Both the position numbers and the translations under genes were made by a program. From Naegleria gruberi (lineage: Eukaryota), in NCBI GenBank assembly GCA_000004985.1, contig GG738861.1: 64,000 nt of DNA; one strand, given 5' to 3'. This document shows positions 14,881 through 47,552 of the stretch, piece by piece. A model generated the notes under the pieces. That model ran no database searches, was not told the DNA's origin, and saw only the letters and a program-made list of their open reading frames with translations. Within the stretch, counting starts at the first letter, position 1, and each line of letters begins with the position of its first letter.

Positions 14881-16426
14881 TTATTTATTGCAACTATCTT
14901 TCATTTCAATATCGTCAGTTTCATTGGCCTTTTCTACAGCATCCTTATATTCCTCTTCAGAGAGGTATGGTCGAATGAGATCGAGTTTACCAATTCTTTG
15001 CAATCCTCTTCTCAATAATTTGGCCATACGAGGGCTTCTCTTAACAAGATCAGAATAAACCAAATGGACATTGGAGCTGTCACAAAAGTTTTGAGTGACT
15101 GCAAAGGTATCATCCAAATTCAAGACCATATGCCACCAAGTACTTGGTACAAAGATTAAATCACCAGGATATTGAACACATTCCCAAGGTCTTCTTCCTT
15201 GATTAAGGGCTTCATAATATTCATTGGTCAACCATTGAATTGGTTCAGAACAAGGTACATAGCTTGGAACTGGTTGAGCATTGTCCTTAATTTCAAATTC
15301 ATCTTCATAAATCTTGTTAATTTTACCTTCGTGTAATAATTTAGTCTTGATTTGCTTTTCGAATTGCAACTTTTCTTGAATCATTTCTTGTTCTGCACTC
15401 TTCATTTCTTCAATTGCTTCCTCCAAATCTTCACTCACATGACTCATTGGATAGAAGAGCCATCTCTTACGACCACTCAATAAGGCATTCCAAGCACTTG
15501 TCAAGTATGGATCCATGTGGAACTAATTACTCTGTTTAGTATAATTTAACACAAATAATACTTACTTGAGTACCACTTCTTGCAGGTCCAACAACCAGCC
15601 ATCTAAAGAGTGGTCTTTCATCAAGTGATAGACATTGCTCGAAAAAGTCTTCCTTGAATAATTGTGGAATTTCATATTCATCCAAAAGTCTTACATCTCT
15701 TTCTGCAAACTTTGAATCAAAAACATAGATTGGATTTTCATCTTGATTATGTTTCATATAATTGGCATAATTTTGAAACTTGATTTTGATATTGCCTTCC
15801 TTTCTGTGTTCATCGTATTTACTCAAATCCTTTCCTTCCTTTTTATCTTGAAGATATTCTCTGTACAATTCTGAATAATGAGGACCCAAGTGTGAAACTT
15901 GTTGATCTGTTTTAAATTCAACTTCACCATACTTTTCCAAGAATGAATCCAATTTCCAATTAGTCATGGCTTTCCAGCTTGAAAGAGCTCCTGTAATAAT
16001 TACAGGAATTTGAAACTTGTTATACTTTTCAGTAAATTGTTCATAAGTAATACTCTCGGCAGGTATTCTTTCAATGTGTGAAAATGGAATATCAAAAAGT
16101 GACATGTCAAATTGAGATCTACTCCATCTACTGTACAAGGTACCTGAAAATCCAGTAAATGGACATGGTTTCTCAATCTTTTTACTCAACCACCATGCAT
16201 GGATATAGGTATATTTCCATGATTTTTCATACCAAAAGTTTCCTTGAAATTCATTCAATGTAAATTGTCTCCACATACTATGATCTTCACTCAATACGAG
16301 TAGAGTTTTAGAAACCAATGAAAGATTACAAAGCTCACTCTTTGATAGGTATGGAATGATAATTTCAACAATACCATCATCAGGAATTTCCTGGAGTAAA
16401 CCCAATCCTTTTCTAATTATCATCAT
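14881..16426 (-). CDS. F-box / JmjC-domain protein (JMJD6-like 2OG-Fe(II) oxygenase): join(16426..15566,15522..14881)
   Basis: The N-terminal F-box-like region is LPDDGIVEIIIPYLSKSELCNLSLVSKTLLVLSEDHSMWRQF. A 43-nt phase-0 intron (GTAAGTATT...aTACTAAAcagagtaatTAG) joins ...WLVVGPARSGTQ|FHMDPYLTSAWNALLSGRKRWLFYP. That junction matches human JMJD6 [38 protein letters not shown]. Confidence 0.8.
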
Positions 16427-27547: not shown

Positions 27548-29332
27548 ATGCCATCACAAGATAATACAGAACAAACAAGCTTTTCCTTCAGAGTGCGGGT
27601 TGCTGACAATGCCAAAGTTAAAGAAGAAAAGTTCATCGTGGTTGATTCTCAGAAATTACCAAAGAGCATTGATGAATTATTCAAATTGGGAAAAGCCAAA
27701 TTAAATTTAAAGAAGAAGGTGCTTGCACTTTATAATGGAAAATCAGGACAAGTCATTGAATCGGATAGTATTATTCAAAAGTTATTCAATGATTTTACAA
27801 CAGCTAAGAGAAAACAATTACAGGAAGAACAATTAATTGGATCAACAGGATTAGGATCAAAGCCTTCCGATGATTTATTCTTTGTTTTTTCGACCAATTT
27901 AAAACAAACTTTCCAAGGAAAGATTACGCAACCAGTTGAATCGAGTGACAATAATACAACAACATCTTCATCATCAGTTGAAAAGACACCAGAAGTAGTT
28001 GTCTTGATAAAGGACAGTTGGTTGGATGATGGAGCTATTAAACAATTGCAAGATACTGCTCGTACATTGAAATGTGTAAGAAGAGCCACTGGTCAACCTG
28101 ACCTTCATCCAGGTAAAACATTCCCAGTAGGAGCTGCCATTTCAACTGTAGATTACATCTACCCACCACTCGTTGGTAATGATATTGGGTGTGGTATGAG
28201 TTTGTATCAAACTAATTTAACATCAGATAGAGGATTGAAACAATTAGAAAAATGGGTGAAACAACTCAACGGATTAGAAAGAGGAGGAATTAGCGGCGAT
28301 GAAAGTAGACCTGTATTGGATGTTGAAAGAAAATTCTTTGGATTGGATTCTAGTGAGGATTTGCTTTCAGCCACATCTACTAACTCTGAAAATGTAGATT
28401 TTGAATTACATGAAGCCACAACTGAATTTATTGAAAAATATTTAACCTATTTTGATGTAGATTTGGGTCAACTCCAAGAAGTTACTCCAAATCTTGAATC
28501 GGAAGAGGGTGTTACCTCTCCGCCAAAGAGTGAAAATAAGGCCTTGGAATTTGCCATTCGTCAACTTGGTACTGTCGGAGGTGGAAATCACTTTGCAGAG
28601 CTTCAAATCGTCGAAAAGATTTGTAATGAAAAGATTTTTGAAGAAGAATTGAAACTTTCAAAGGATGCTTGCTTTTTGATGGTTCATAGTGGATCAAGAT
28701 CCCTTGGTGATCATATTCTTGGAGAACATGAGGATAAATTTGGAAATAGTGGCTTGCTTTTTGACTCGGATGATGCAAAGCACTATATGAAATGTCACGA
28801 CAATGCTTGTAGATGGGCAAAGGCCAACAGAGCTCTCATTGCCAGAAAGTTCCTTACTTGCATTAACGGAAATGGTAAAATGATTCTTGACATTTGCCAC
28901 AACAATGTTGTAGAAAAACAAGTTGAAAATGAAAGAGTTTTCATTCACAGAAAGGGTGCTGCACCAACAGATGCTGGTTACTTCTGCATTCCTGGTTCGA
29001 GAGGATCATTCTCCTATCTTGTTCGTGGACGTGAAGAAGATATTGAAAGCCAAATTCGTTGTAATTTTTCAGCTGCACACGGTGCTGGCAGAAAATGGAA
29101 GCGTTCCAAATCAGTTGGTATGGCCGCAAAGGAAAATGTTCAATCCTTCACAGTTACTGACCTCGGATCTCATGTCATTTGTGAAGATAAGAATTTACTT
29201 TTTGAAGAACAACCTGCTGCTTACAAGGATATCGATGCAGTCATTTCAGATTTAGTTCATTTTGGGGTTGTTGAAGTTGTTGCCATTATGAGACCACTCA
29301 TTACCTACAAGATGAGAAACTGTTGCCATTAA
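27548..29332 (+). CDS. RtcB-family RNA ligase of bacterial (E. coli RtcB) type, with a 170-aa N-terminal beta-grasp/CIDE-N-like extension
   Basis: All RtcB catalytic motifs are present (PDLHPGKTFPVGAAI; GNDIGCGMSLYQTNL; GGGNHFAELQ; VHSGSRSLGDHI; ICHNNVVE; HRKGAAPT; AAHGAGRKWKRS; AYKDIDAV). The best resemblance is to bacterial RtcB (VDIGCGMNALRTAL, GTGNHFIEIC, HSGSRGIGN, SHGAGRVMSRTKAKK, MAYKDIDAV). The eukaryotic HSPC117 type is not the closest match. The N-terminus FSFRVRVADNAKVKEEKFIVVDSQKLPKSIDELFKLGKAKLNLKKKVLALYNGKSGQVIESDSIIQKLF is CIDE-N/beta-grasp-like. Confidence 0.8.
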   Translation: MPSQDNTEQTSFSFRVRVADNAKVKEEKFIVVDSQKLPKSIDELFKLGKAKLNLKKKVLALYNGKSGQVIESDSIIQKLFNDFTTAKRKQLQEEQLIGSTGLGSKPSDDLFFVFSTNLKQTFQGKITQPVESSDNNTTTSSSSVEKTPEVVVLIKDSWLDDGAIKQLQDTARTLKCVRRATGQPDLHPGKTFPVGAAISTVDYIYPPLVGNDIGCGMSLYQTNLTSDRGLKQLEKWVKQLNGLERGGISGDESRPVLDVERKFFGLDSSEDLLSATSTNSENVDFELHEATTEFIEKYLTYFDVDLGQLQEVTPNLESEEGVTSPPKSENKALEFAIRQLGTVGGGNHFAELQIVEKICNEKIFEEELKLSKDACFLMVHSGSRSLGDHILGEHEDKFGNSGLLFDSDDAKHYMKCHDNACRWAKANRALIARKFLTCINGNGKMILDICHNNVVEKQVENERVFIHRKGAAPTDAGYFCIPGSRGSFSYLVRGREEDIESQIRCNFSAAHGAGRKWKRSKSVGMAAKENVQSFTVTDLGSHVICEDKNLLFEEQPAAYKDIDAVISDLVHFGVVEVVAIMRPLITYKMRNCCH

Positions 29333-30956: not shown

Positions 30957-31898
30957 ATGGAAACATTACAAGATGAGTGGATTATTATTTGTTCTTTTAT
31001 GAATGTTAGAAGTTTATTAAATTTTCAATTGGCATGCAGGGATTTCTATCGGATTGGATCTTGTGATATCATATGGAAGAGTATTTATCAATATTATTGG
31101 AAAAGTTGGTCATCAGATTTGCATCCGAATCAAAATATAAAGTTTGGATTGTGTGGTCATCTCTCCATCATTAACAAGGAAATGCCAACAGAAAATTACA
31201 AATATCATGTGATGGGAGTGTATGAATTGCAACATTTAAGAACGGATGGGAAGATTAAATTTCAAAAATATGAGTCAATACTGAAAAAACCACTTGATGA
31301 AATGCATTCGAAAGTGACTCACATGAAGATATCAATTTTAGGAGAAGGAAATGGAGTCACATCTCTGTTGATGAGATTGAAATTAGGAGCATTCCCACAA
31401 ACAGCATTAAATATTGGAAGTCTGCCGGCTATGGAAACCTTTAGGCATGAAACTGTAAAAGAAGGAAGAAAATTCTCAATTGATTTCATTGACCTTTCAG
31501 ATATTGGATATTCACGATTAATGCCATTGCTTTTGTATGGTTGTGATCTTTTCGTTCCAACATTTTCTCTCAATAATGCGCATTCTTCATTTGAAAGAGT
31601 TGAGATCAAGTGGATCCCAACAATTGAACATTACATGTGCAATGCACCAATTATAATATTGGGAACGAAACTAGATGAAAAAAGTAATACACACGTTATT
31701 ACAGAGAAGAAGTTATCACAACAGTCTAATTGTATCACTTATTATGAAATATCAGCACTCACAGCAGATGATGACCAAATGAATCAATTTGTTGAGCTAT
31801 GTGTCAAATCTGTTCTCATGACTCACAAACCAATAATAACAAGTGAGAACAGCTTTGCAACAACTTTTGGAAAACCAAAAAAATGTTTCCTTCAATAG
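30957..31898 (+). CDS. F-box plus Ras-superfamily-like pseudo-GTPase with a C-terminal CaaX box
   Basis: The N-terminus is F-box-like (DEWIIICSFMNVRSLLNFQLACRDFYRIGSCDIIWKSIY). The GTPase-like fold has a degenerate P-loop (KISILGEGNGVTSLL, no Lys) and no DxxGQ. NKxD is retained as ILGTKLD and SAK as EISAL. The protein ends ...KPKKCFLQ* (CaaX). Confidence 0.55.
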   Translation: METLQDEWIIICSFMNVRSLLNFQLACRDFYRIGSCDIIWKSIYQYYWKSWSSDLHPNQNIKFGLCGHLSIINKEMPTENYKYHVMGVYELQHLRTDGKIKFQKYESILKKPLDEMHSKVTHMKISILGEGNGVTSLLMRLKLGAFPQTALNIGSLPAMETFRHETVKEGRKFSIDFIDLSDIGYSRLMPLLLYGCDLFVPTFSLNNAHSSFERVEIKWIPTIEHYMCNAPIIILGTKLDEKSNTHVITEKKLSQQSNCITYYEISALTADDDQMNQFVELCVKSVLMTHKPIITSENSFATTFGKPKKCFLQ

Positions 31899-31912: not shown

Positions 31913-33583
31913 TTATTTGACAAAGTATTTGCTGTAAAAGGATTTGAGTGGCTGTAGGGTCTCTTGACTTTCAGTCATGCTATTGGACTGTGAAACATGA
32001 TCTGGAGAATTATTAGAATACCGAGATGAAGTAGAGGAAGATGGATTAAATTGAGGAGGATTAGGAGAGCAGAATGACTCGATTATATTTGTCTCATTGA
32101 GAAGGGTATCACTAAGCAATGGGTTTTGAGTAGATGAATTTACAGAGAAGGATTGCCTTGTTGAGTTCTTTAGATATACTTCTACTTTTTCTATATTGTC
32201 TGTGGATCCAACAATTTTGAATGCAATTTCATTGGATGAGCTCGACAGACCAGGGGACATTGGAATGGAATTAATACTTGCCAGTGTTGTCATGTTTGGT
32301 GTTGTCTGAACGTCACGAAGCATGCTTGTTTGACACGATTTACAATCTCGCTTTTCTTCGTCGTCACTTGAAACAGAAGTATTGCATTCTCTCTTTGGTT
32401 GAGGTTTTTGGAAATGTTTGGCATATGTGGATTTTACAGGTTCTCGTGAGCTAATCTTTTTGGAAATATTTTCTACTGCTTGGTTTGCTCTGGATTTGGA
32501 GGTTGACGATGTCAAAGGTTTTTTCAACTCTGTCTTCTTTGAAGGCTCTGGTTTTGTATATTTGGAGGTTGGTGTTTTTGATCTTGTTGTTGCGACTTTA
32601 GATTTGATAGATGTCTCTTTCTTCTCTTCCTTCATCGAGCTTACCTTAACGGATTGCGGCCTCTTTGGAGTTGTACTTTTTCTTGATGGTTTAATCCTTC
32701 TTGGCTCATAATTTTCCTTGTCACTATCAACAGAGCTTATGGAAATATCAGCCTTCTTTTTCTTTGAGTTTTTAGCAGATTTTCCAGAGAAGATTTCATT
32801 TTCCATATATTTTTCTCCATAATTATCAAGTTTTGTAAATAATTCATCTGTGTTTGTCGACATATTTGAGGCAGTAGATATCATATCATCCACAGGTCCC
32901 ATTCTGTTTGATCTCAATGGAGTGACAGAAGAAAGAGATGTATCAATATCTCTTGGCTTGTATGTATTCGAGAATTCTGTCAACTTCCCATAAAGATCAC
33001 TCAAAGAATCATCCAAATTATGCTGAGTAGGTTTAGGTTTTGATTTTTCATTGTATTTTTCCAAATATCGTTTCAAAGCACTTGCTGTAGAGTCAATTGA
33101 ATCGTCCATACTGATGTTTTCTGAAATCTTTGAAGATAATTTCTTGTTGGAAGGATGAATAAGGCTGCTATCACTCAAGTCATCGTATGCAGCATAGGAA
33201 GATCGTTTTGAGGCACTTGAGGTTGTTTTTTTGACATTACTTTCAATCTCCTTTGCTAAATTATTCATCTCCTCCCACTTTGTTGATACCGATGAAGAGT
33301 TAGACATCATGGAAGAATTTAGACTTTTCATATTTCCAAGAGCAGCAGTACTTGTTGTGGTGACACTAATATTATGATGTTTTTGTACACTAGGTGGCGT
33401 AAGCCTTGACATTAAACTCGACAATAATTCTGATGAATCCTCATCCCCAGTTGTTGGACTCTTTCTTCTCGGGGTTGAATTTACTGATGATGGATAACTT
33501 CTCACAACATACGATGATGAACGGTCCGTATCCTCTCCAGCGTCAGAAACAGTTGACGACGACGAGGAAGAATATTTACTCAT
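31913..33583 (-). CDS. S/T/K-rich disordered protein, 556 aa
   Basis: True ATG. Low complexity runs throughout (MSKYSSSSSSTVSDAGEDTDRSS...). It is continuous and coding-like, with no domain. Confidence 0.5.
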   Translation of the reverse strand: MSKYSSSSSSTVSDAGEDTDRSSSYVVRSYPSSVNSTPRRKSPTTGDEDSSELLSSLMSRLTPPSVQKHHNISVTTTSTAALGNMKSLNSSMMSNSSSVSTKWEEMNNLAKEIESNVKKTTSSASKRSSYAAYDDLSDSSLIHPSNKKLSSKISENISMDDSIDSTASALKRYLEKYNEKSKPKPTQHNLDDSLSDLYGKLTEFSNTYKPRDIDTSLSSVTPLRSNRMGPVDDMISTASNMSTNTDELFTKLDNYGEKYMENEIFSGKSAKNSKKKKADISISSVDSDKENYEPRRIKPSRKSTTPKRPQSVKVSSMKEEKKETSIKSKVATTRSKTPTSKYTKPEPSKKTELKKPLTSSTSKSRANQAVENISKKISSREPVKSTYAKHFQKPQPKRECNTSVSSDDEEKRDCKSCQTSMLRDVQTTPNMTTLASINSIPMSPGLSSSSNEIAFKIVGSTDNIEKVEVYLKNSTRQSFSVNSSTQNPLLSDTLLNETNIIESFCSPNPPQFNPSSSTSSRYSNNSPDHVSQSNSMTESQETLQPLKSFYSKYFVK

Positions 33584-33727: not shown

Positions 33728-35048
33728 TTAATAATCCACTAATAAATCATGCAAGAATTGTTTACGAGCTTGATTCATAACTTTGGTCTTTTTGGTTGAG
33801 CTTTGAACACCACCTGCCTTCTTTCTCTTCTTCTTATTAGATTCTGCTTCTTCCAAAACAGTCTTGGCTTCAGGATTTAAAAGCTTTTCTTCAATTTTCT
33901 TTTCTTGTTTCTTTAATTTCTTGACATCTTTTTCCTTTTCCTTAACATCGACCACATCAACCAAATTCAAATCAAACAAACCAATGGCATTGTAAAATCT
34001 GATATTTTCCAAAGAGCAACTTGCTAAATATTTGGCATCTCTTGAAATACTCAAATCGAAAATTGGTTCATTAGTTTGATCTGTTAATCTATGTTGACGT
34101 TTAGTATTCTTAGTGTTAAGTCCAAATATGACACCATCATCTGATGCATAGGTCAAATAACCTTCCTTAACTAGTTTCATTACTGAAATATTACTGGTCA
34201 ATGTCGAAATACATCTATTTGGTTGATATAATTTGTGTGATTGGAATTCATAAATAGTTCCTGATGATCCAGCAGCATAAATAAAATCACCATTTGACAT
34301 GGTAGCAATTCCAACAAGGTCATCATTCACTCCTTCAGTCACACCAACACCAGTTGGCTTTGATTTTTTCATATCCACAACACTAATACATCCATCAGCT
34401 CCAGCAGAATATAACATTCCAGATTCTGGAGCAAAAGCAAAGCAACTAATATAATCTCCATGTTCCTTATATGATTGAATGGCTTTCTTTTGACGAACGT
34501 CCCAAATTCTAACAACTCCTTCATCATCTCCTGTTGCAACTCTATCATCATCAATAACGATGAGTGAATTAATTGGTGATTTGTGAGCATCCTTAATTGA
34601 AAATTTAACTGATGCCTTTTTAACATCCACAACATTGAAACGACGATCGGAACCACATGAAAGCATTGTTTTACCATCATCGGAGAAGAAGATTTTACGA
34701 CAAGCTTCATTGTGATGATTAAATGTGGCTACACAAGTATTTTCAATTTCAATAGAGTATTTATATCTTTTGATGATGAATTTAATTAATATTAATATTA
34801 AATAAATTATTTAATTAATAGTTTGCAACTATGTGGATTACTCACATTTTAGTTTCACCTGTCACTAAAGCAACAGCTAATAAATCCAATTTAGGATGAA
34901 AATCAATAGAAAAAACAGATTCCGATTCGATAATTGGCTTTGGGACGTAGATTTTTTGATTCTTTTCATCATTCTTCACAATGAAATGTTCATTCAAAGA
35001 ATAGTCAATCTCATCAACAGATTCACGCACGTCTTCTTCTTTGATCAT
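33728..35048 (-). CDS. WD40-repeat protein (WDR55-like) with a K-rich C-terminal tail: join(35048..34846,34766..33728)
   Basis: Exon 1 (MIKEEDVRESVDEIDYSLNEHFIVKNDEKNQKIYVPKPIIESESVFSIDFHPKLDLLAVALVTGETK; the track M at 35063 is a TTG) ends in phase 2 at a GTGAGT donor. A 79-nt intron follows (gtgagtaatcc...catcaaaag). Exon 2 is IYKYSIEIENTCVATFNHHNEACRKIFFSDDGKTMLSCGSDRRFNVVDV..., carrying the WD repeats. Confidence 0.7.
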
Positions 35049-42675: not shown

Positions 42676-42860
42676 ACTATTATAATTAAACTAATCAATG
42701 AATTCATTATTTACTTCTATTGCTCATAAAAAAGTGACTTTTTACCTTTGGATAGAGACTTATATTCAACATTGTGGATGGAGAAAAGAATGATTATCAA
42801 GGTATTGTCTAATGCTGTATATGAAAACAAATATATGAATAATAATTCATAATTATGTAT

Positions 42861-42932
42861 TCCCGTGTAGTCCAATGGCTAGGATACCTGGCTTTCACCC
42901 AGGAGGTCCGGGTTCAATTCCCGGCATGGGAG
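42861..42932 (+). tRNA. tRNA-Glu (anticodon UUC)
   Basis: TCCCGTGTAGTCCAATGGCTAGGATACCTGGCTTTCACCCAGGAGGTCCGGGTTCAATTCCCGGCATGGGAG folds as a cloverleaf. The acceptor stem is TCCCGTG/CATGGGA with one G-T pair. The anticodon stem is CCTGG/CCAGG around the loop cTTTCAc. The T-arm is GGTTCAATTCC. There is no intron. Confidence 0.9.
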
Positions 42933-42937
42933 AATAC

Positions 42938-46310: not shown

Positions 46311-47552
46311 TTAATAATTAACTTTTGGTTGAATGAATGTTGAAGTTCGTTTCATTCTCCTCAGAGATGACTGTTCCTGAGCTGGTTCTTCCTCACGTAC
46401 AATTTGAATTCCACTTGTTGTCAATAATCCACCACCACTCTCTTCATCTTTTGAATTCTTTTGAGAAGGGGATGAGTACATGGATTTTAGTTTTACAAGT
46501 GTTGAACCTACTCTCTTTCTATTATTCGAATCATCGTTCTCTGTTGCATTTTGATGATCAGAGGTATCCGAGTTTGCATGTTGATGCTTGTTTTGGTTCT
46601 TTGAGGCCATATTTCTCATCACCTCAATGGATTTGATAAATTCGGCAACTTCTTTAGGTTGCTGAATAGATTTTTCAATTGCATTTAAAGTTTCGTACAA
46701 ATCTGAAATGCTAATTAAACGATCTGACTTCATGTAACACATCCATTTGAGTGTAAATTTGATAATTTCTTTCATATTGAGAGGTGTGTTAATAATTGAA
46801 ACATCTACTAGGTATTTCTGTACAGCTTTGATCAAATCCAAATGTTCAGCAATCAACAGTAAAAGTTCATTCATAGAGTTGACTGAAAATTTTAACATTT
46901 TCTCAATAGTGGTATTACTACTAAACAGTAATGAAAAGCAAACACTCTTCAGAATGACCCTCTTTGCCAATGTAATTTCAGTTTTAAAAACTGTTGTTTC
47001 TAACACTGAATTTCCACAAACTTCTCCAAATAGAGAAAGAGCATTTTCCATTGTCATTTTGGTATTTTCTGGAAGATTGAGAATTTCAGTCTTTTCAAAT
47101 TTAGTTTTGGCAATGATTTGTGTAGCAGCTTCTCCCATCAATATCTTTTTCAATACTGTTATCAAATTGATAATCTTGAAACGATAGGCCATCATTATAA
47201 ATTCACTCAAATCATTCACTTGACAATTGACAACTCCAGAGTAAAAGTATTCAATGAGACTTTTGAATATTTTGAGAGGTTCTTGAATGGGAATTGTAAG
47301 AATTGATGAATTGGATACTGTTCCTGATGAAGATCCTCTCGGAGTAAGAACCTTCTCATGAACATCAAATAAATTCTTAAAATATCGATTTTGATAGAGC
47401 ATGAATTTGTGTGCATAGATTTTACCTTCCAATGTTTCAAAGATAACGTCTGGGAATGATTCTGCATTGTTAAAACATTCGGAAAAAGTGCAATCAAAGC
47501 AGGGGACAGATATCAGATTGTTTGACATTTTTTTTTTAACGTATGATGGCAT
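46311..47552 (-). CDS. BTB/POZ-domain protein
   Basis: The N-terminal BTB fold is FPDVIFETLEGKIYAHKFMLYQNRYFKNLFDVHEK...IPIQEPLKIFKSLIEYFYSGVVNCQVNDLSEFIMMAYRFKI. A helical region and an S/Q-rich C-terminus follow. True ATG at 47552. Confidence 0.65.
   Translation of the reverse strand: MPSYVKKKMSNNLISVPCFDCTFSECFNNAESFPDVIFETLEGKIYAHKFMLYQNRYFKNLFDVHEKVLTPRGSSSGTVSNSSILTIPIQEPLKIFKSLIEYFYSGVVNCQVNDLSEFIMMAYRFKIINLITVLKKILMGEAATQIIAKTKFEKTEILNLPENTKMTMENALSLFGEVCGNSVLETTVFKTEITLAKRVILKSVCFSLLFSSNTTIEKMLKFSVNSMNELLLLIAEHLDLIKAVQKYLVDVSIINTPLNMKEIIKFTLKWMCYMKSDRLISISDLYETLNAIEKSIQQPKEVAEFIKSIEVMRNMASKNQNKHQHANSDTSDHQNATENDDSNNRKRVGSTLVKLKSMYSSPSQKNSKDEESGGGLLTTSGIQIVREEEPAQEQSSLRRMKRTSTFIQPKVNY

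What the first reader, a model, noticed from the sequence alone, without database searches (positions are those of the whole stretch)
30957..31898. F-box fused to a CaaX-ended Ras-like pseudo-GTPase
An F-box-like N-terminus is followed by a small-GTPase fold whose P-loop lacks the lysine (GEGNGVTS) and whose switch II DxxGQ is absent, while NKxD (TKLD) and SAK (SAL) remain. It ends in CFLQ, a candidate prenylation box. This is a membrane-targeted SCF adaptor built on a nucleotide-binding-deficient GTPase scaffold, an uncommon architecture.
Basis: inference. Interest (0 to 1): 0.5.

Follow-up and report, generated by a model that had tools for sequence, protein, structure and literature searches.

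The report
Naegleria F-box–Rho pseudoGTPase, already catalogued

Summary
ORF 30957-31898 (+) is an intact single-exon gene of 313 aa. Profile searches confirm all three modules.

- **F-box (aa ~3-45):** the family profile matches the beta-TrCP1 F-box at E=2e-11.
- **Tail:** polybasic stretch plus CaaX, KPKK-CFLQ.

The G domain is degenerate. The P-loop is GEG-NGVTS (Lys16 to Val, one residue shorter). Switch II is DLSDIG (Gly60 and Gln61 lost). Thr35 and the Rho insert are gone. TKLD and SAL remain, and these are the native Rho forms of those motifs.

The window is Naegleria gruberi NEG-M. The protein is 100% identical to a sequence printed in Herman et al. 2021 (PMC8296547, Table S8). It is listed there as "Rac", newly created gene model on ACER01000199.1, additional domain "F-box". 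[quoted passage not shown]

Its search found no discussion of P-loop loss. The loss is shared only with the paralogue XP_002674152.1 (43% identity). Other F-box-Rho relatives keep GKT.

A near-identical strain gives dN/dS of about 0.19, which argues against decay. SCF-adaptor function, loss of nucleotide binding and farnesylation remain inferences.

Verdict: observation confirmed, architecture already known, modest interest.

The parts
30957..31898 (+). Complete single-exon CDS (313 aa plus TAG) of the N. gruberi F-box-Rac pseudoGTPase gene
   Evidence: ORF list. It is 100% identical to the 'Rac / ACER01000199.1** / F-box' sequence of PMC8296547 Table S8. No consensus intron donor lies inside it. 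It is conserved in strain L001 with dN/dS 0.19.
30963..31091 (+). F-box (aa ~3-45; three short helices 4-12, 17-24 and 28-34 in the model); lacks the canonical Leu-Pro (T3-L4)
   Evidence: Pfam F-box-like aa 11-45. The family profile matches beta-TrCP1, FBXO3, FBXW7 and Skp2 F-boxes. Helices come from the AlphaFold model.
31092..31316 (+). Helical linker (aa 46-120) between the F-box and the G domain; no known domain
   Evidence: Model helices 37-53, 62-73 and 78-93 at low to moderate confidence. No Pfam hit. It is 25% identical to the paralogue P0002.
31317..31826 (+). Rho/Rac-type G domain (aa 121-290) without the Rho insert
31341..31364 (+). Degenerate P-loop G129-E-G-N-G-V-T-S136 (Lys16 to Val, one residue shorter than GxxxxGK[ST])
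   Evidence: Alignments to Rac1 and H-Ras. Identical codons in L001. The paralogue P0002 has GDHHSGVTD.
31491..31508 (+). Switch II remnant D179-L-S-D-I-G (DxxGQ lost: Gly60 to Asp, Gln61 to Ile). The downstream Y-x-R-L-x-P-L of Rho alpha2 is kept.
   Evidence: Alignment A3. P0002 has DVSDMDY.
31665..31676 (+). G4 motif T237-K-L-D240, identical to Rac1
31752..31760 (+). G5 motif S266-A-L268, identical to Rac1
31872..31895 (+). Polybasic stretch plus CaaX box K306-P-K-K-C310-F-L-Q313 (X = Gln predicts farnesylation)
   Evidence: Read directly from the sequence. Cys is invariant and basic residues recur in all family members: CSLQ, CSIQ, CLIQ, CVIC, CMVQ.

Best explanation
This is a genuine, selectively maintained Naegleria gruberi gene of the lineage-specific F-box-Rho(Rac) family that Herman et al. 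2021 catalogued.

Shown here:
- The domain order is F-box, helical linker, Rho-type G domain, polybasic-CaaX tail.
- The G domain has lost the P-loop lysine, Gly60 and Gln61 of switch II, Thr35 and the Rho insert.
- These losses are shared with one paralogue only, so they arose once, before that duplication.

Inferred mechanism:
- The F-box docks on Skp1, placing the protein in an SCF (Cul1) ubiquitin ligase.
- The C-terminal Cys is farnesylated. Together with the basic patch this holds the complex on a membrane.
- The Rho-like domain can no longer cycle between GTP and GDP states. It would serve as a constitutive protein-binding module, that is, the substrate receptor. Likely partners are proteins that normally recognise Rho-family switch II/alpha2 surfaces, because Y-x-R-L-x-P-L is retained.

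In effect it would be a Cul1-based, switch-less counterpart of the RhoBTB-Cul3 adaptors. Sister F-box-Rho proteins with intact GKT/DxxG motifs would do the same job in a GTP-dependent way.
For: Identity:
- Exact match to the published 'Rac + F-box' model.
- Neighbouring genes are N. gruberi XP_002678559.1 and XP_002678557.1.

F-box:
- (profile E=2e-11 to beta-TrCP1; 8 of 8 family members hit both Pfam F-box models).

Rho-type fold:
-.

Degenerate G1, G2 and G3 motifs and missing insert:
-.

Shared derived state with the paralogue P0002 (GK to GV, DxxGQ to DxSD, insert loss):
-.
- Seven other F-box-Rho relatives keep GxxxxGKT.
- 126 of the 151 proteins on file from that search (150 listed hits plus one cluster member) keep the motif; most exceptions look like fragments.

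Selection:
- 9 synonymous against 7 non-synonymous changes versus strain L001, dN/dS 0.19, binomial p=0.0014 against neutrality. The only indel is in frame.
- Between the 43%-identical paralogues, the F-box (51%), beta2-beta3 (53%), switch II/alpha2 (47%), beta6/G5 (73%) and alpha5 (67%) are the best-kept parts.

CaaX:
- Cys is invariant and the polybasic context recurs across the family.

Published view:
- F-box and BTB fusions point to 'GTPase-dependent ubiquitination' in Naegleria (PMC8296547 Suppl. Material 4).
Against: - No biochemical step was tested.
- The F-box lacks the conserved Leu-Pro that contacts Skp1 and Cul1 in canonical F-boxes, and it starts only 3 residues from the N-terminus. 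In the full-length protein it scores below Pfam's cut-off.
- G4 (TKLD) and G5 (SAL) are perfectly kept. That is unexpected if nucleotide binding is completely gone, so weak or atypical guanine-nucleotide binding is not excluded.
- The AlphaFold model is only moderately confident (pLDDT 68.8, 7-sequence alignment).
- The dN/dS estimate rests on only 16 substitutions.
- No expression data could be consulted. The gene was missed by the original N. gruberi annotation.
- No substrate is known for any F-box-GTPase.
Confidence: 0.55

Rival explanations
1. Self-turnover device. The F-box does not recruit third-party substrates. It couples the Rho-like protein itself to SCF so that it is short-lived. 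The prenylated pseudo-Rho domain is the functional part, for example a membrane scaffold or a competitor that sequesters Rho regulators.
For: The same idea was proposed for the only experimentally studied F-box-GTPase, TbFRP of trypanosomes. There the F-box was linked to rapid proteolysis and turnover (PMC3593210). F-box proteins are commonly auto-ubiquitinated (general knowledge). The domain evidence fits this reading equally well.
Against: It still requires Skp1 binding, which is untested. It does not explain why dozens of different GTPase classes in Naegleria acquired F-boxes. It overlaps with the best explanation rather than excluding it.
Confidence: 0.2
2. It is still a nucleotide-binding, atypical GTPase. 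It would be locked in one state like Rnd or RhoH, or bind through a non-canonical P-loop. Substrate recruitment to SCF would then remain nucleotide-dependent, as suggested for the family.
For: G4 TKLD and G5 SAL are identical to Rac1, and Asp57 and Thr17 equivalents are present. Herman et al. speak of 'GTPase-dependent ubiquitination'. Sister proteins keep all motifs.
Against: The P-loop Lys is replaced by Val and the loop is one residue shorter. Gly60, Gln61 and Thr35 are lost. The paralogue has additionally lost Lys116 (TQKD) and most of switch I. By established knowledge of Ras-superfamily G motifs, this combination is characteristic of nucleotide-free pseudoGTPases.
Confidence: 0.15
3. It is a decaying or unexpressed paralogue, a by-product of the birth-and-death evolution of Naegleria GTPase families, whose ORF is still open by chance.
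For: Herman et al. note pseudogenes and rapid turnover in the F-box Rab-like clades. The gene has no 1:1 orthologue in N. fowleri in their table. It was not called in the original annotation. Catalytic motifs are degenerate.
Against: A 313-codon ORF is intact in two strains, with an excess of synonymous change (dN/dS 0.19, p=0.0014) and an in-frame indel. A 43%-identical paralogue shares the same derived losses yet keeps the F-box, fold and CaaX, so the degenerate state has been maintained through long divergence. The authors did not flag it as a pseudogene.
Confidence: 0.08

Closest known systems
Naegleria F-box-Rac proteins of Herman et al. 2021 (BMC Biol 19:142, Table S8), especially the paralogue XP_002674152.1 / D2VPB9
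   Same: Same architecture: F-box, linker, Rho-type G domain, polybasic-CaaQ. The window protein is itself entry 'Rac, ACER01000199.1**, F-box'. XP_002674152.1 shares the GV P-loop, the DxSD switch II and the missing insert.
   Different: Most other members keep GxxxxGKT, and several keep DTAG and the Rho insert. Examples are XP_002678060.1, ACER01000078.1, N. lovaniensis XP_044543062.1 and Willaertia KAL9656017.1. Some carry extra Kelch or BTB domains. A search of the paper and its supplements found no mention of the P-loop or of nucleotide binding in these proteins.
RhoBTB (atypical Rho GTPase fused to BTB domains; Cul3 substrate adaptor)
   Same: An atypical Rho-type domain is fused to a cullin-RING-ligase docking module. 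Herman et al. place F-box and BTB fusions in the same functional frame. RhoBTB also exists in Naegleria.
   Different: The docking module here is an N-terminal F-box (Skp1/Cul1), not C-terminal BTB domains (Cul3). No BTB hit was found. This protein has a CaaX tail. RhoBTB's role as a Cul3 adaptor is from my own knowledge and was not tested here.
TbFRP (FYVE-F-box-GTPase of Euglenozoa; PMC3593210)
   Same: It is the only F-box-plus-small-GTPase protein found in these searches with experimental work. It is also membrane-targeted, and its F-box function is also unresolved.
   Different: TbFRP uses a FYVE domain (PI3P) rather than prenylation for membrane binding. Its GTPase is Rab18-like, not Rho-like. 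Its authors found no orthologue in N. gruberi, so the fusion is independent.
FBXL2/FBXL20: F-box proteins with a C-terminal CaaX (geranylgeranylated)
   Same: They are precedent for a prenylated, membrane-anchored SCF substrate receptor (own knowledge). The FBXL2 F-box appears among weak profile hits.
   Different: Their substrate-binding module is leucine-rich repeats, not a GTPase fold. Their CaaX is CVIL, a GGTase-I type.
PseudoGTPases (p190RhoGAP pG1/pG2, CENP-M; Rnd and RhoH as hydrolysis-dead Rho proteins)
   Different: Rnd and RhoH keep the P-loop Lys and bind GTP. The p190 pseudoGTPase domains have lost G4 and G5 as well (own knowledge). This protein is intermediate: G1 to G3 are lost, G4 and G5 are kept.

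Membership tests
F-box proteins (Pfam PF12937 / PF00646) | About 45-aa three-helix motif recognised by F-box profiles | tested here: met
   F-box-like scores 25.2 bits (cut-off 24.3) for the N-terminal 54 aa, and 20.6 bits in the full protein. The family profile hits beta-TrCP1 at 2e-11 and FBXO3, FBXW7 and Skp2. The model has three helices at aa 4-34.
F-box proteins (Pfam PF12937 / PF00646) | Conserved Leu-Pro dipeptide preceding helix 1 | tested here: not met
   T3-L4 occupies that position. The Pro is absent in all eight family members aligned.
F-box proteins (Pfam PF12937 / PF00646) | Binds Skp1 and assembles into SCF | not testable with these tools
   No complex-prediction or binding assay was available.
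Rho family of Ras-superfamily small GTPases | Ras-superfamily G-domain fold | tested here: met
Rho family of Ras-superfamily small GTPases | Closest sequence relatives and signature motifs are Rho/Rac (YxRLxPL, KWxPE, TKLD, SAL) | tested here: met
   All 60 PDB sequence hits listed (of 183 matched) are Rac, Rho or Cdc42. The motifs are visible in alignment A3. Herman et al. annotate it as 'Rac'.
Rho family of Ras-superfamily small GTPases | Rho insert helix between beta5 and alpha4 | tested here: not met
   25 residues separate TKLD from SAL, as in H-Ras, against 39 in Rac1. The model has no insert helix.
Rho family of Ras-superfamily small GTPases | G1 P-loop GxxxxGK[ST] | tested here: not met
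   GEG-NGVTS: Lys to Val, one residue shorter.
Rho family of Ras-superfamily small GTPases | G2 Thr35 and G3 DxxGQ (switch I and II) | tested here: not met
   Switch I has a 4-residue insertion and no aligned Thr. Switch II is DLSDIG.
Rho family of Ras-superfamily small GTPases | G4 [NT]KxD and G5 SA[KL] | tested here: met
   TKLD and SAL are identical to Rac1.
Rho family of Ras-superfamily small GTPases | C-terminal polybasic region plus CaaX | tested here: met
   KPKK-CFLQ. The Cys is invariant in the family. Actual prenylation was not tested.
PseudoGTPases | GTPase fold with motifs incompatible with nucleotide binding and/or hydrolysis | tested here: met
   Met at the sequence level only: G1, G2 and G3 are lost.
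PseudoGTPases | Demonstrated lack of nucleotide binding or hydrolysis | not testable with these tools
   Requires biochemistry (mant-nucleotide binding, ITC).
Naegleria F-box-GTPase fusions (Herman et al. 2021) | Listed member with N-terminal F-box plus Ras-superfamily domain in N. gruberi | tested here: met
   The string is identical to the Table S8 entry (314 characters including the stop, match True).
RhoBTB | Tandem BTB domains C-terminal to the Rho domain | tested here: not met
   No BTB hit at E<=10. The protein ends 23 aa after the G domain.
TbFRP (FYVE-F-box-GTPase) | N-terminal FYVE domain; Rab-like GTPase | tested here: not met
   No FYVE hit. The GTPase is Rho-like. The TbFRP authors found no Naegleria orthologue.

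The most novel reading that the evidence does not exclude
The Rho-like domain cannot hold nucleotide but keeps the switch II/alpha2 surface (Y-x-R-L-x-P-L). It may therefore mimic nucleotide-free Rac, the state that RhoGEFs bind most tightly (compare the G15A and T17N trap mutants). A farnesylated SCF with this receptor would capture RhoGEFs, or RhoGDI, at the membrane and ubiquitinate them. That would be a hard-wired, switch-independent brake on Rho signalling and a Cul1 analogue of RhoBTB-Cul3, evolved within the N. gruberi lineage.
Probability: 0.1. Interest if true: 0.7.

Novelty: already known. Interest (0 to 1): 0.3.

Why it matters

No F-box-Rho protein has been studied experimentally in the literature searched here. 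The one detail that search did not find reported is that this gene and one paralogue have turned the Rho module into a pseudoGTPase while staying under purifying selection.

That pair offers a natural comparison of switch-dependent and switch-independent versions of a putative GTPase-coupled ubiquitin ligase. It could help test whether these fusions really act as SCF substrate receptors.

Tried and rejected
- **Word-indexed homologue searches.** The single-sequence search returned only the 97%-identical metagenome copy. The profile search returned mostly plain Rab and Rho proteins. Neither helped define the family. The exhaustive phmmer search was what found the paralogue and the Naegleria and Willaertia relatives.
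- **Exact-sequence look-up of the window protein** found nothing. The reason is that the gene is missing from the public N. gruberi annotation, not that the ORF is spurious.
The taxonomic spread of the full architecture could therefore not be surveyed by structure.
- **Other GTPases in the window.** The Rab22 and Ras-pseudogene models on the same contig (ACER01000199.1) are not in the window. No other small-GTPase-like sequence is present.
- **Intron hypothesis rejected.** No GTAAGT-type donor lies in the CDS, only a weak GTGAGA at 31843. A real intron elsewhere in the window shows the GTAAGT...CAG consensus.
- **Sequencing or assembly error rejected** as the cause of the odd P-loop: a second assembly has identical codons.
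- **Antisense ORF 31319-31609** (96 aa): no supporting evidence, treated as chance.
- **RhoBTB, TbFRP or FBXL2 membership rejected** on domain content.

Full report
**What is there**

The finding's coordinates coincide exactly with an ORF on the + strand, 30957-31898, with an ATG start, 313 codons and a TAG stop. The window has about 34% G+C. It is densely packed with mostly uninterrupted ORFs and very short spacers. Neighbours include:

- an RtcB ligase and a glycine-cleavage T protein upstream;
- a Ser-rich ORF converging 15 nt downstream;
- a WDR55-like protein, an XPG nuclease, a proteasome subunit and others.

**Organism and prior knowledge**

An exhaustive phmmer search of 1.84 billion representatives found four kinds of relative:

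- a 98%-identical copy (P0001);
- one clear full-length relative at 43% identity (P0002);
- weaker full-length relatives (P0007, P0016, P0037, P0035);
- many ordinary Rho/Rac proteins.

Cluster look-up identified P0002 as Naegleria gruberi XP_002674152.1 ('rho family member'). P0007 is from N. lovaniensis and P0037 from Willaertia magna.

Two neighbouring window proteins are exact matches to N. gruberi XP_002678559.1 and XP_002678557.1. The window is therefore N. gruberi NEG-M. The finding's own protein is not in the gene-position index.

A literature search led to Herman et al. 2021 (PMC8296547). Its Additional file 10 (Table S8, N. gruberi sheet) prints a 313-aa sequence. The entry is labelled 'Rac', ID 'ACER01000199.1**' (a newly created gene model), additional domain 'F-box', and is not flagged as a pseudogene. 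A string comparison shows it is identical to the window translation.

[quoted passage not shown] It adds that F-box and BTB fusions point to 'GTPase-dependent ubiquitination'. 'F-box' occurs 72 times in Table S8. At least eleven N. gruberi 'Rac' entries carry an F-box, some together with Kelch or BTB domains.

A search of the paper and its supplements for P-loop, catalytic or nucleotide-binding remarks about these proteins found none. Neither this gene nor XP_002674152.1 appears as a one-to-one orthologue of an N. fowleri gene.

**The three modules**

*F-box.*
- Pfam F-box-like matches aa 11-45. It scores 20.6 bits in the full protein, below the 24.3 cut-off, and 25.2 bits for the N-terminal 54 aa alone.
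- The five PDB sequences hit by the N-terminus alone are all F-box proteins, aligned in register.
- A profile of eight family N-termini (A4) makes this decisive: beta-TrCP1 2e-11, FBXO3 8e-11, FBXW11 1e-10, FBXW7 8e-7, Skp2 about 1e-4.
- All eight members hit both Pfam F-box models.
- The AlphaFold model has three short helices at aa 4-34 followed by longer linker helices.
- One caveat applies. The Leu-Pro that opens canonical F-boxes is absent. T3-L4 sits in its place, and the Pro is missing in all eight family members aligned.

*G domain.*
- Sequence: Pfam Ras 5.3e-11. All 60 PDB sequence hits listed (of 183 matched) are Rho family, led by Rac1 and Entamoeba Rho1 at about 3e-13.
- Motifs against Rac1 and H-Ras:

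| Motif | Canonical form | This protein |
|---|---|---|
| G1 (P-loop) | GxxxxGK[ST] | GEG-NGVTS; Lys16 to Val, one residue shorter |
| Switch I (G2) | Thr35 | 4-residue insertion, no aligned Thr35 |
| G3 (switch II) | DxxGQ | DLSDIG; Asp57 kept, Gly60 and Gln61 lost |
| G4 | [NT]KxD | TKLD, identical to Rac1 |
| G5 | SA[KL] | SAL, identical to Rac1 |
| Rho insert | 39 residues TKLD to SAL in Rac1 | absent; 25 residues, as in H-Ras |

- The Rho alpha2 signature Y-x-R-L-x-P-L survives.

*Tail.*
- The C-terminus is KPKK-CFLQ. The Cys is invariant across the family and basic residues precede it. Family endings include CSLQ, CSIQ, CLIQ, CVIC and CMVQ.
- By the established CaaX rule, X = Gln predicts farnesylation. 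This is inference.

**Is the degenerate state real, derived and maintained?**

An independent metagenome assembly (L001, ERR1078381) carries the same gene in the same gene order. Within the CDS it differs at 16 nucleotide positions and by one in-frame 3-nt deletion. The P-loop and switch II codons are identical.

Nei-Gojobori counting gives 9 synonymous and 7 non-synonymous differences, dN/dS = 0.19. The binomial probability of so few non-synonymous changes under neutrality is 0.0014.

The paralogue P0002 shares the same derived features:
- P-loop GDHHSGVTD;
- switch II DVSDMDY;
- no Rho insert.

It has drifted further still, with TQKD at G4 and most of switch I deleted. Yet it keeps the F-box, the fold and KKKR-CSLQ.

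Between the two paralogues, conservation is highest in the following regions:

| Region | Identity |
|---|---|
| F-box | 51% |
| beta2-beta3 | 53% |
| switch II/alpha2 | 47% |
| beta6/G5 | 73% |
| alpha5 | 67% |

This pattern fits retained interaction surfaces rather than random decay.

Seven other proteins in the hit set that carry the family F-box all have an intact GxxxxGKT. Of the 151 proteins on file from that search, 126 have the motif, and most exceptions look like fragments. The loss therefore happened once, in the ancestor of this N. gruberi pair.

**Intron check**

A genuine intron elsewhere in the window, in the F-box-JmjC gene, has the consensus GTAAGT...CAG. The CDS contains no such donor. 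The published model is the same single exon.

**How it probably works**

Shown: the architecture, the motif state and the selective constraint.

Inferred:
- The F-box docks Skp1, so the protein would be an SCF (Cul1) subunit.
- Farnesyl plus the basic patch anchors it to a membrane.
- The switch-less Rho-like domain is a constitutive binding module that selects substrates.

In function it would resemble RhoBTB-Cul3 adaptors and the prenylated F-box protein FBXL2. Both comparisons rest on my own knowledge. The intact-motif sisters would couple ubiquitination to GTP state, as Herman et al. suggest.

Rivals:
- The F-box mainly controls the protein's own turnover, as proposed for trypanosome TbFRP (PMC3593210).
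- The retained G4 and G5 motifs indicate residual, atypical nucleotide binding.
- The gene is a decaying paralogue. The selection data argue against this.

The most novel reading not excluded is that the nucleotide-free Rho mimic traps RhoGEFs or RhoGDI for ubiquitination. There is no direct evidence for it.

**Comparison and verdict**

Membership of the F-box and Rho families is supported by profile and fold. Three classical features were tested and not met:
- the Leu-Pro of the F-box;
- the Rho insert;
- the G1 to G3 motifs.

The protein is not a RhoBTB (no BTB), not TbFRP (no FYVE, and not Rab-like) and not FBXL2-like (no LRR).

The architecture and this specific gene model are already published, though only in a supplement and without functional work. 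What this analysis adds is the pseudoGTPase character of this pair and evidence that it is under constraint. Interest is modest.

Noticed in passing
window 14881-16426 (-): ORF 15536-16426 carries F-box-like plus the N-terminal part of Cupin_8. ORF 14881-15516 carries the JmjC C-terminal part. A 34-nt GTAAGT...CAG intron at about 15531-15564 joins them. This is a second F-box fusion in the same window, F-box-JmjC hydroxylase or demethylase-like.
   Followed up: partly
window 30957-31898 versus public annotation: The finding's gene is absent from the public N. gruberi protein set. Flanking genes are present as XP_002678557.1 and XP_002678559.1. It exists only as a 'newly created gene model' in a supplementary table.
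   Followed up: yes
window 27548-29332 (+): The RtcB ligase (XP_002678559.1) has an N-terminal extension of about 165 aa with no Pfam match. The RtcB domain starts at aa 166.
   Followed up: partly
window 33728-34666 (-): The WDR55-like WD40 ORF begins at position 70 of the 296-position profile. An upstream exon and an intron probably exist.
   Followed up: no
window 31913-33583 (-): A Ser-rich 556-aa ORF with no Pfam domain converges on the finding's gene. The two stop codons are only 15 nt apart, so the 3' UTRs must overlap or be extremely short.
   Followed up: no
L001 / L002 (metagenome run ERR1078381, PRJEB11402): A contig from an environmental or host-associated metagenome carries the same RtcB, GCV_T, F-box-Rac and Ser-rich gene order. 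Across the aligned 1.1 kb it differs from the window at 16 nucleotide positions and one 3-nt indel. A close N. gruberi-like strain is therefore present in that sample.
   Followed up: partly
L003 (DRR438532) and L004 (SRR28285696); P0060, P0083: Further F-box-Rho-CaaX proteins with intact P-loops occur in unidentified eukaryotic assemblies with very tight gene spacing. In L003 the gene sits next to a Kelch-repeat gene. Longer versions (498 and 657 aa) have an internal F-box. The family's taxonomic range beyond Naegleria and Willaertia is open.
   Followed up: partly
window 46311-47552 (-): A BTB/POZ-domain protein of 412 aa, another cullin-adaptor-type gene in the window.
   Followed up: no
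window 42860-42933 (+): A single tRNA-Glu(UUC) gene, the only Rfam or ARAGORN hit in the 64 kb.
   Followed up: no
PDB hit list of the family F-box profile: ECT2L, a metazoan protein that combines an F-box with a RhoGEF module, appears among the F-box hits at E=5.8e-4. F-box fusions to Rho-pathway components have thus arisen independently elsewhere.
   Followed up: no
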